DNA of 11,317 nt from a virus. Of the stretch, positions 9,673 through 10,084 are shown in pieces (within the stretch, counting starts at the first letter, position 1; the number at the start of each line of letters is the position of its first letter). A program made the translations under genes and the position numbers. The stretch lies in the UHGV virus genome UHGV-0229837; one strand, given 5' to 3'. The notes under the pieces were generated by a model that saw only the letters and a list, made by a program, of their open reading frames with translations, had not been told where the DNA came from and made no database searches.

Positions 9673-9885
9673 ATGTCTAACAAAATGACTGGTTTAGTGA
9701 AATGGTTTAACCCTGAAAAAGGTTTTGGTTTCATCACGCCGAAAGATGGCAGCAAAGATGTGTTTGTCCATTTCTCAGCAATTCAGAGCAACGATTTCAA
9801 AACATTAACTGAGAATCAGGAAGTTGAATTTGGTATTGAGAACGGACCTAAAGGTCCTGCCGCTGTTCATGTAGTGGCGCTTTGA
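9673..9885 (+). CDS. cspI: CspA-family cold-shock protein, CspI-type
   Basis: 70 aa, [70 protein letters not shown], with RNP1/RNP2 motifs; matches my recollection of Qin prophage CspI nearly residue for residue. A long AT-rich leader lies upstream (9312-9672). Confidence 0.9.
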
Positions 9886-10084
9886 GGTAGACAATATTAC
9901 AAACCATATTCACTTTAGATGCCCGTGTTGTCATGGTTCCCAGTATAGAACATCATCTTTTGATGTTTCTGACATGAATCCTTTCGGGGCAAAATGTATC
10001 TTTTGTAAATCAATGATGATTACATTTGATAATATTTCACAATACTTAAATGCCAGCCGTCTGTCGTTGGATTTAAAAAAGTGA
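9875..10084 (+). pseudogene. Small zinc-ribbon ORF (CPCC...22 residues...CIFC) lacking an in-frame start codon; possibly frameshifted
   Basis: Frame open 9875-10084 (...RCPCCHGSQYRTSSFDVSDMNPFGAKCIFCKSMMITFDNISQYLNASRLSLDLKK); the first in-frame ATG is at 9974, after the first Cys pair. An ATG at 9919 lies one frame away within ATGCCCG. May correspond to the small proteins found next to csp genes in E. coli; unverified. Confidence 0.35.

What the first reader, a model, noticed from the sequence alone, without database searches (positions are those of the whole stretch)
9875..10084. Zinc-ribbon small ORF downstream of cspI lacks a start codon; possible 1-nt frameshift at a C-run
The frame encoding CPCC...CIFC (four Cys, zinc-ribbon spacing) has no ATG/GTG/TTG before the first Cys pair. 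An ATG at 9919 is one frame away within ATGCCCGTGTTGT; removing one C would give MPCCHGSQY... in frame. Either it is a pseudogene created by a homopolymer indel, or it needs a +1 shift or a non-canonical start.
Basis: seen in the sequence. Interest (0 to 1): 0.45.

Follow-up and report, generated by a model that had tools for sequence, protein, structure and literature searches.

The report
ynfQ: known small gene, ATT start
The "start-less" zinc-ribbon ORF after cspI is the known E. coli cold-shock small protein gene ynfQ, which is intact and begins at a rare ATT start codon, so it is neither a pseudogene nor a frameshift.

Summary
The frame 9875-10084 encodes CPCC...CIFC, has no ATG, GTG or TTG before the first Cys pair, and the ATG at 9919 is out of frame.

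The explanation is already known. This is ynfQ (b4724, Qin prophage), a paralogue of ymcF and a member of Pfam PF23641 "YmcF-like". RefSeq annotates it as 9896-10084, 62 aa, starting at ATT.

- **Start signals:** the ATT lies 7 nt after a GAGGT Shine-Dalgarno that overlaps the cspI stop codon.
- **Start codon in other species:** in 80 species-level loci the homologous codon is ATT (60), ATC (4) or ATG (16). An RAGG motif lies 11-12 nt upstream in 79 of 80.
- **Frame and selection:** all 80 loci keep the frame, and variation is concentrated at third codon positions.
- **C-run:** it is not conserved. The residues IHFRC, which the frameshift model would remove, are 90-100% conserved.
- **Sequencing error:** the 81 nt spanning the SD, ATT and C-run are identical in 1576 complete E. 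coli records.

Pseudogene, sequencing error and +1 frameshift are therefore rejected, and the non-canonical start is supported. From memory, D'Lima et al. 2017 showed the ATT starts experimentally.

One small new point: ATT/ATC starts go with a csp gene directly upstream, while stand-alone copies mostly use ATG. This suggests translational coupling. The protein's function is unknown.

The parts
9673..9885 (+). cspI, a cold shock protein and the first cistron of the operon. Its TGA stop is at 9883-9885.
   Evidence: 70-aa ORF. RefSeq annotation of the homologous region in K-12 and strain 504239. CspA-family NCBIfam hits.
9884..9888 (+). Shine-Dalgarno GAGGT for ynfQ. It overlaps the cspI stop codon and lies 7 nt upstream of the ATT.
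   Evidence: Sequence. An RAGG motif at -12 or -11 from the start codon occurs in 79 of 80 orthologous loci.
9896..9898 (+). ATT, the non-canonical start codon of ynfQ.
   Evidence: The RefSeq CDS starts 10 nt after the cspI stop, and the K-12 CDS translates as ITNHIHF.... The homologous codon is ATT in 60, ATC in 4 and ATG in 16 of 80 loci. Experimental identification is in D'Lima et al. 2017 (PMID 28861998), cited from memory because the paper is not held in the library.
9896..10084 (+). ynfQ coding sequence: 62 aa plus the TGA stop, YmcF-like cold-shock small protein.
   Evidence: Pfam PF23641, 109.9 bits, profile positions 1-62 of 62. 131 homologues in Enterobacterales. Third-position excess of substitutions.
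9920..9931 (+). First Cys knuckle, C9-P10-C11-C12.
   Evidence: C9, P10 and C12 are invariant. Codon usage varies among TGC/TGT and CCG/CCA/CCT.
9919..9921 (+). Out-of-frame ATG, formed by chance from the AGA (Arg8) and TGC (Cys9) codons. It is not a start codon.
   Evidence: Present in only 27 of 80 orthologous loci. Its frame stops after 9 codons.
9995..10006 (+). Second Cys knuckle, C34-I35-F36-C37.
   Evidence: C37 and F36 are invariant and C34 is at least 90% conserved.
10090..10112 (+). Intrinsic-terminator-like hairpin (AAGGCUCC-UUCG-GGAGCUUU) followed by a U-run, the likely end of the cspI-ynfQ transcript. It lies inside ynfR.
   Evidence: RNA fold. The same stem was picked up by the scan on the opposite strand. 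A similar hairpin plus T-run follows ymcF in alignment A2.
10087..10152 (+). ynfR, a 21-aa small protein (MKAPSGAFLLGVYSMDTHILR).
   Evidence: RefSeq annotation. SPA-tagged YnfR rises after cold shock (VanOrsdel 2018, PMC6001520).

Best explanation
The ORF is the intact, already described gene ynfQ of the Qin-type prophage. Its chromosomal paralogue is ymcF, next to cspG. It encodes a 62-aa, four-cysteine, zinc-ribbon-like small protein.

It is the second cistron of the cold-inducible cspI transcript. Translation starts at the near-cognate codon AUU (window 9896), read by initiator tRNA as Met. A GAGGU Shine-Dalgarno placed 7 nt upstream and overlapping the cspI UGA stop directs the ribosome there.

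- **Shown here:** gene identity, the start position, the conserved SD-start geometry, purifying selection in this frame, and absence of any frameshift.
- **Taken from the literature:** cold induction and experimental proof of the ATT start.
- **Inferred:** the weak AUU start is serviced largely by ribosomes that have just terminated on cspI (translational coupling or re-initiation). This would tie YnfQ output to Csp translation at a lower level.
- **Unknown:** the protein's function. The best guess is a metal-bound (Zn or Fe) nucleic-acid- or ribosome-binding accessory of the cold-shock response, held with low confidence.
For: **Identity.**
- The window from the cspI 3' end through ynfQ and ynfR is 100% identical to K-12.
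- RefSeq annotates ynfQ, named 'cold shock small protein YmcF', as 189 nt starting 10 nt after the cspI stop. That CDS translates from ATT.
- It matches Pfam PF23641 YmcF-like at 109.9 bits against a cutoff of 27.

**Start codon.**
- In 80 species-level loci the homologous codon is ATT in 60, ATC in 4 and ATG in 16.
- 28 of these loci have an in-frame stop 12-48 nt upstream and no canonical start before the Cys pair.
- An RAGG motif lies at -12 or -11 in 79 of 80 loci.

**Coding.**
- Substitutions per site by codon position are 0.142, 0.086 and 0.494. The ORF is 62 aa in 70 of 80 loci, and the frame is kept in all 80.
- Residues 5-20 are nearly invariant.

**Not an error.** The 81-nt stretch is identical in 1576 complete E. 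coli records.

**Operon and expression.**
- A csp gene ends 9-10 nt upstream, with its stop overlapping the SD, in about 50 loci.
- cspI, ynfQ and ynfN are co-induced, and ynfQ is described as cold-shock induced (PMC11228462).
- YnfR is cold-induced (PMC6001520).
- D'Lima et al. 2017 (PMID 28861998) is cited for bacterial AUU starts (PMC10191623). I recall its content, YmcF/YnfQ cold-shock microproteins with ATT starts confirmed genetically, from memory.

**Coupling inference.**
- With csp adjacent, 53 loci have ATT or ATC and 1 has ATG. Without adjacent csp, 12 have ATT and 18 have ATG.
- A rough genus-level table of 12:1 against 3:6 gives p = 0.007.

Against: - The primary paper with the start-codon mutagenesis could not be read here, so the experimental step rests on memory, on a secondary citation and on the curated annotation.
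- The coupling inference has exceptions. Pseudescherichia and one Citrobacter locus keep ATT without an adjacent csp. The loci are also phylogenetically non-independent.
- AUU is discriminated against by IF3, which is reported to rise in cold shock (my own knowledge). It is not obvious why a cold-induced gene keeps AUU.
- A second in-frame ATT at 9908 (codon 5) cannot be excluded as a minor start from sequence alone. It lies 19 nt from the SD, and no orthologue has ATG at that codon (ATT, ATC, ATA or CTC).
Confidence: 0.93

Rival explanations
1. Pseudogene: a one-base insertion in the C-run of ATGCCCGTGTTGT displaced an ancestral ATG start, so the ORF is no longer translated.
For: In this window an ATG lies one frame away at 9919 and no canonical start lies in frame. 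Homopolymer indels do occur nearby, in ynfN.
Against: - All 80 orthologous loci share this frame.
- The C-run is not conserved (TGC or TGT, then CCG, CCA or CCT), and the ATG occurs in only 27 of 80 loci.
- Residues I5-C9, upstream of that ATG, are 90-100% conserved with synonymous variation.
- The sequence is identical in 1576 E. coli genomes and in K-12.
- Literature reports the gene as cold-shock induced and RefSeq names it a cold shock small protein (annotation).
Confidence: 0.01
2. Programmed +1 ribosomal frameshift: translation starts at ATG 9919 and shifts at CCC-G into the Cys-rich frame.
For: ATG CCC G could in principle allow P-site slippage on CCC.
Against: - The product would lack the invariant C9 and the conserved IHFR.
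- The ATG and the CCC are absent from most orthologues.
- No SD precedes 9919 at a suitable spacing, whereas one precedes 9896.
- 16 species have a plain ATG at the 9896 position.
Confidence: 0.01
3. The gene is translated from the ATT at 9896, but independently of cspI. Initiation is de novo 30S binding driven by the strong SD. ATT is simply a neutral or expression-lowering variant with no coupling role.
For: - The SD is well placed, with RAGG at -12 in 79 of 80 loci.
- Pseudescherichia and one Citrobacter locus keep ATT with no csp adjacent.
- No conserved RNA structure links the two cistrons.
Against: - The csp stop overlaps the SD at a fixed 9-10 nt from the start in about 50 loci from many genera.
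- The start-codon type tracks csp adjacency, 53:1 against 12:18.
Confidence: 0.35

Closest known systems
YmcF (b4723), the small protein encoded directly downstream of cspG in E. coli K-12
   Same: - 66% identical and also 62 aa.
- Same CPCCHGSQY...CIFC motifs.
- Same position 10 nt after a csp stop codon that overlaps the SD.
- Same ATT start and a terminator hairpin just after the stop.
- Both fall in Pfam PF23641, and RefSeq names both 'cold shock small protein YmcF'.
   Different: ymcF sits at a chromosomal cspG locus, while ynfQ sits in a Qin-type lambdoid prophage after the lysis genes. The C-terminal 15 residues diverge.
infC (IF3) and pcnB, the classic E. coli genes with an AUU start codon
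   Same: They use AUU as the initiation codon with a normal Shine-Dalgarno. The weak start limits expression (my own knowledge).
   Different: - infC's AUU is an autoregulatory sensor of IF3, and no such loop is known for ynfQ.
- ynfQ's AUU sits 10 nt behind the stop codon of an upstream, highly translated cistron.
- It is replaced by AUG in most lineages where that cistron is missing.
Zinc-ribbon domains (TFIIE-alpha zinc finger 1vd4, ribosomal protein eL43)
   Same: Two CxxC knuckles about 21 residues apart on a small beta-rich fold. These are the top structural neighbours of the AF2 model.
Rieske box II motif (CPCHGSQY) of cytochrome b6f iron-sulfur subunits
   Same: A local 13-15 residue match, HF(R/K)CPC(C)HGSQY, with E 0.04 against PDB.
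   Different: YnfQ has no Rieske box I (CxHxGC) and no Rieske fold. The match is most likely chance or convergence around a metal site.
ECs_2282 family putative zinc-binding protein (NF047912) and YnfU (NF038384), other prophage CxxC small proteins
   Same: Small prophage-encoded proteins with paired CxxC motifs. YnfQ and YmcF give weak NF047912 hits, E 0.002-0.003.
   Different: The scores of 17-18 bits are far below the cutoff of 37. YnfU shows no alignable similarity to YnfQ.

Membership tests
YmcF-like small proteins (Pfam PF23641; RefSeq 'cold shock small protein YmcF') | Full-length match to the family HMM above the gathering score | tested here: met
   109.9 bits against a cutoff of 27, E 6.9e-32, residues 1-62 on profile positions 1-62 of 62.
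YmcF-like small proteins (Pfam PF23641; RefSeq 'cold shock small protein YmcF') | Conserved motif IHFRCPCCHGSQYRTS ... GAKCIFCK | tested here: met
   All invariant columns (F7, C9, P10, C12, G14, S15, Q16, R18, S20, D23, P29, G31, F36, C37, K38, M41) are present in the window protein.
YmcF-like small proteins (Pfam PF23641; RefSeq 'cold shock small protein YmcF') | Gene lies immediately downstream of a cspA-family gene on the same strand | tested here: met
   The cspI stop at 9883-9885 lies 10 nt before the start. The same arrangement occurs in 53 of 80 loci. It is typical of the family but not universal.
YmcF-like small proteins (Pfam PF23641; RefSeq 'cold shock small protein YmcF') | Protein produced and induced by cold shock | not testable with these tools
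   Literature only: D'Lima 2017 (PMID 28861998, from memory) and the 'cold shock induced' label in PMC11228462.
Genes with a non-canonical AUU initiation codon (infC and pcnB type) | AUU at the annotated or orthologous start, with no in-frame canonical start available | tested here: met
   ATT at 9896, an in-frame TAG 24 nt upstream and no ATG, GTG or TTG in between. ATG replaces it at the same codon in 16 species.
Genes with a non-canonical AUU initiation codon (infC and pcnB type) | Shine-Dalgarno at functional spacing | tested here: met
   GAGGT at 9884-9888 with a 7-nt spacer. The position is conserved in 79 of 80 loci.
Genes with a non-canonical AUU initiation codon (infC and pcnB type) | Initiation at AUU shown by mutagenesis or N-terminal mapping | not testable with these tools
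   Reported by D'Lima et al. 2017 (from memory). That paper is cited for bacterial AUU starts in PMC10191623 but is not held in the library.
Zinc-ribbon fold | Two CxxC knuckles supplying four metal ligands | tested here: met
   C9-x-x-C12 and C34-x-x-C37 are conserved.
Zinc-ribbon fold | Significant structural similarity to solved zinc ribbons | tested here: inconclusive
Zinc-ribbon fold | Zinc actually bound | not testable with these tools
   A review modelled YnfQ as rubredoxin-like with Fe2+ (PMC13348028). No metal analysis is known to me.
Programmed +1 frameshift genes (prfB type) | Conserved zero-frame start, slippery site and stimulatory elements, with a product that requires the shift | tested here: not met
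   ATG 9919 occurs in 27 of 80 loci and the CCC is not conserved. The residues upstream of it are conserved as coding.
Pseudogene (frame-disrupted) | Frame broken relative to orthologues, or relaxed constraint | tested here: not met
   The frame is identical in all 80 loci. There is a strong third-position excess of substitutions.

The most novel reading that the evidence does not exclude
The AUU (or AUC) start of ymcF/ynfQ-type genes is not a neutral oddity. It is a coupling device. The gene is translated mainly by ribosomes that terminate on the csp stop codon embedded in its Shine-Dalgarno. YnfQ is therefore made only when, and in proportion as, the Csp cistron is translated in the cold. 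Lineages that lost the adjacent csp had to convert the start to AUG.
Probability: 0.35. Interest if true: 0.4.

Novelty: already known. Interest (0 to 1): 0.15.

Why it matters
For annotation, the result shows that the ORF should be called as ynfQ with an ATT start, not flagged as a pseudogene or frameshift. Several phage records carrying the same gene leave it unannotated, so this class of gene is still missed by standard callers.

Biologically, the gene and its ATT start are already described. The only added value here is the comparative pattern. ATT or ATC occurs when a csp gene sits directly upstream, and ATG mostly when it does not. That gives a testable hint that near-cognate initiation in this family depends on translational coupling. 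The function of this conserved, cold-induced, metal-binding small protein remains open.

Tried and rejected
- **SD-sequestering hairpin.** In the window's MFE fold the GAGGU pairs with ACUUUA at about 9911-9917, but z is only -1.48. RNAalifold on 22 diverse csp-coupled loci finds no conserved structure or covariation there. Rejected.
- **Relationship to YnfU.** YnfU is the 'zinc-binding' small protein of Qin. No alignment was found and it belongs to a different NCBIfam family. Rejected.
- **Membership in ECs_2282_CxxC.** The scores of 17-18 bits fall below the cutoff of 37. Not a member.
- **Rieske relationship.** Only a 13-15 residue local match at E 0.04. Treated as chance or convergence.
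- **Primary literature.** D'Lima 2017 and the Hemm/Storz small-proteome review are not held. Full-text searches found only citing papers.
- **Name clash.** The name 'ynfQ' in VanOrsdel 2018 refers to a different 37-aa sORF between ydfJ and ydfK and was not used as evidence for this gene.
- **Source of the window.** The whole window has no full-length match in the complete E. coli genomes; the best covers 85% at 97.5%. The source strain is not identified.

Full report
**1. The observation**

The region was read and translated. After a TAG at 9872-9874 the frame is open from 9875 to the TGA at 10082-10084. It reads [69 protein letters not shown].

There is no ATG, GTG or TTG in frame before the first Cys pair. 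The ATG at 9919-9921 is real but one frame away, and its own frame stops after nine codons. The two CxxC knuckles lie at 9920-9931 and 9995-10006. The gene upstream, 9673-9885, is cspI.

**2. What it is**

A megablast of 9600-10200 against complete E. coli genomes hits 2145 genomes. The annotated features under the match are cspI, ynfQ/ymcF ('cold shock small protein YmcF'), ynfR and ynfN.

In K-12 MG1655 this is the Qin cryptic prophage. There cspI (b1552) is followed 10 nt after its stop by ynfQ (b4724, 189 nt), then ynfR and ynfN. Strains 504239 and KKa014 have the same layout.

The window is 100% identical to K-12 from the end of cspI through ynfR. The annotated CDS therefore maps to window 9896-10084, and its first codon is ATT. 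Translating the K-12 CDS gives ITNHIHF....

The protein matches Pfam PF23641 'YmcF-like' over its whole length, at 109.9 bits against a cutoff of 27. A protein search returned 131 homologues. Nearly all are from Enterobacterales, with a few labelled Caudoviricetes, and most are annotated at 62 aa with M in place of the ATT-encoded residue.

**3. The start codon, tested comparatively**

I fetched 80 species-level genomic loci and examined the codon homologous to 9896.
- It is ATT in 60 loci: Escherichia ynfQ and ymcF, Shigella, Citrobacter, Kosakonia, Scandinavium, Yokenella, Trabulsiella and others.
- It is ATC in 4 loci: Salmonella and Siccibacter.
- It is ATG in 16 loci: the Klebsiella oxytoca group, Raoultella, Silvania and C. 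sedlakii.

In 28 loci an in-frame stop lies 12-48 nt upstream with no canonical start before the Cys pair. ATT is the only option there. An RAGG motif lies 11-12 nt upstream of the start in 79 of 80 loci. In the window it is GAGGT at 9884-9888, with a 7-nt spacer, and it overlaps the cspI TGA.

Where upstream in-frame ATG or TTG codons exist in other species, they lie inside the csp coding sequence and are not conserved.

**4. The frameshift and pseudogene ideas**

- All 80 loci keep the frame; the ORF is 62 aa in 70, 64 aa in 9 and 57 aa in 1.
- Across 73 distinct sequences, pairwise differences per site are 0.142, 0.086 and 0.494 at codon positions 1, 2 and 3 of codons 1-45. This is clear purifying selection in this frame starting from the ATT.
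- The 'C-run' is a by-product of the TGC (Cys9) and CCG (Pro10) codons. Elsewhere these are TGT, and CCA or CCT.
- The out-of-frame ATG comes from AGA (Arg8) plus TGC and occurs in only 27 of 80 loci.
- The 81 nt spanning the SD, ATT and C-run are 100% identical in 1576 complete E. coli records. Sequencing error is excluded.

**5. Literature**

The library does not hold the primary paper. From memory, D'Lima et al., J Proteome Res 2017, 16:3722 (PMID 28861998), found YmcF and YnfQ by comparative proteomics at low temperature. They confirmed cold-shock expression and identified the non-canonical ATT start codons genetically.

Support available here:
- That paper is cited as the source for AUU start codons in bacteria (PMC10191623).
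- ynfQ is listed as 'Qin prophage, cold shock induced' and is co-regulated with cspI and ynfN (PMC11228462).
- YnfR-SPA rises after cold shock (PMC6001520).
- A 2026 review models YnfQ as a rubredoxin-like metal-binding miniprotein (PMC13348028).

One caveat on naming: the 'ynfQ' of VanOrsdel 2018 is a different sORF.

**6. How it most likely works**

Shown here: cspI and ynfQ are 10 nt apart on one strand. The cspI stop codon is embedded in the ynfQ SD. A terminator-like hairpin plus U-run follows at 10090-10112, and ymcF has a similar one.

Inferred: the two genes form a bicistronic, cold-induced operon. The weak AUU start is serviced largely by ribosomes terminating on cspI.

Start-codon type against csp adjacency:

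| csp gene | ATT or ATC start | ATG start |
|---|---|---|
| Ends within 45 nt upstream | 53 loci, including Dickeya | 1 locus (C. sedlakii) |
| Not adjacent | 12 loci | 18 loci |

- In C. sedlakii, csp and the ymcF-like gene are fused into one 130-aa ORF.
- The 18 stand-alone ATG loci include Klebsiella, Raoultella, Silvania, Enterobacter hormaechei, Leclercia and Kluyvera.
- Of the 12 stand-alone ATT loci, the three Atlantibacter loci have an ATG as the very next codon.
- A rough genus-level table of 12:1 against 3:6 gives Fisher p = 0.007. The loci are not phylogenetically independent, and Pseudescherichia is a clear exception.

No conserved RNA structure was found at the junction.

**7. Comparison with known systems, and verdict**

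The feature is a member of the YmcF-like family. The HMM, motif and context criteria are all met. It joins infC and pcnB as an AUU-initiated E. coli gene. It is not a prfB-type frameshift gene and not a pseudogene; the defining features of both were tested and not met.

The finding is a correct observation of an already described and annotated peculiarity. Interest is low. The start-codon and csp-adjacency pattern is a modest, testable addition.

Noticed in passing
window 10157-10185: The 5' end of ynfN carries two homopolymer runs whose lengths differ between strains. The window has A6/T8, which gives ATG AAA AAA TCA TAG, a stop after 4 codons. K-12 has A7/T7, where ynfN is annotated from a downstream ATG as 51 aa. 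Strain 504239 has A7/T8, which gives a 76-aa YnfN.
   Followed up: partly
window 10188-11317: Homology to the Qin cspI-ynfN region ends at 10212. From 10188 a start-less open frame ([12 protein letters not shown]...NYIVRLA*, ending at 10738) looks like the C-terminal part of a side tail fibre protein. A tfa-like ORF follows at 10736-11317, and 10610-11300 matches the K-12 stfQ/tfaQ region at 96%. The prophage appears to have a deletion joining ynfN to the middle of stf, removing gnsB, ydfO, ynfO and nohA.
   Followed up: partly
window 10087-10152: The 21-aa ynfR ORF contains the terminator-like hairpin and U-run that follow ynfQ (10090-10112). Its codons 2-9 are the terminator stem-loop.
   Followed up: no
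L012 1297-1689 (Citrobacter sedlakii NBRC 105722): The csp gene and the ymcF-like gene are fused into a single 130-aa ORF (...GPRGPHFKVTVMTPHIHFRCPCC...). An ATG sits at the normal ymcF start position.
   Followed up: no
window 9911-9946 (YnfQ residues 6-17): The conserved motif HFRCPCCHGSQY resembles the Rieske box II motif (K)FKCPCHGSQY of cytochrome b6f iron-sulfur subunits, with profile-against-PDB E 0.04. His13 is nearly invariant, so the metal site may not be a plain Cys4 zinc site.
   Followed up: partly
phage records OV696610.1 (Tritos), NC_049950.1 (2H10), LR597641.1 (mEp460), PV340562.1 (PhiR42_1): Sequenced temperate Escherichia phages carry ynfQ at 95-100% protein identity. In most records nothing is annotated at the site, presumably because gene callers need a canonical start codon.
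   Followed up: no
L003-L087 (84 loci): The start codon of ymcF-like genes tracks whether a csp gene ends just upstream. With csp adjacent, 53 loci have ATT or ATC and 1 has ATG. Without it, 12 have ATT and 18 have ATG.
   Followed up: partly
window 5116-5191 and 5296-5372: Two tRNA genes lie downstream of the Q-like antiterminator ORF (4151-4972). One is tRNA with anticodon CAT, annotated as tRNA-Ile in the homologous RefSeq region, and the other is tRNA-Arg(TCT). This is the usual lambdoid-prophage tRNA cluster.
   Followed up: no
literature (PMC6001520): The gene name ynfQ was used in VanOrsdel et al. 2018 for a different 37-aa sORF between ydfJ and ydfK. This is a naming trap when collecting evidence for b4724.
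   Followed up: yes
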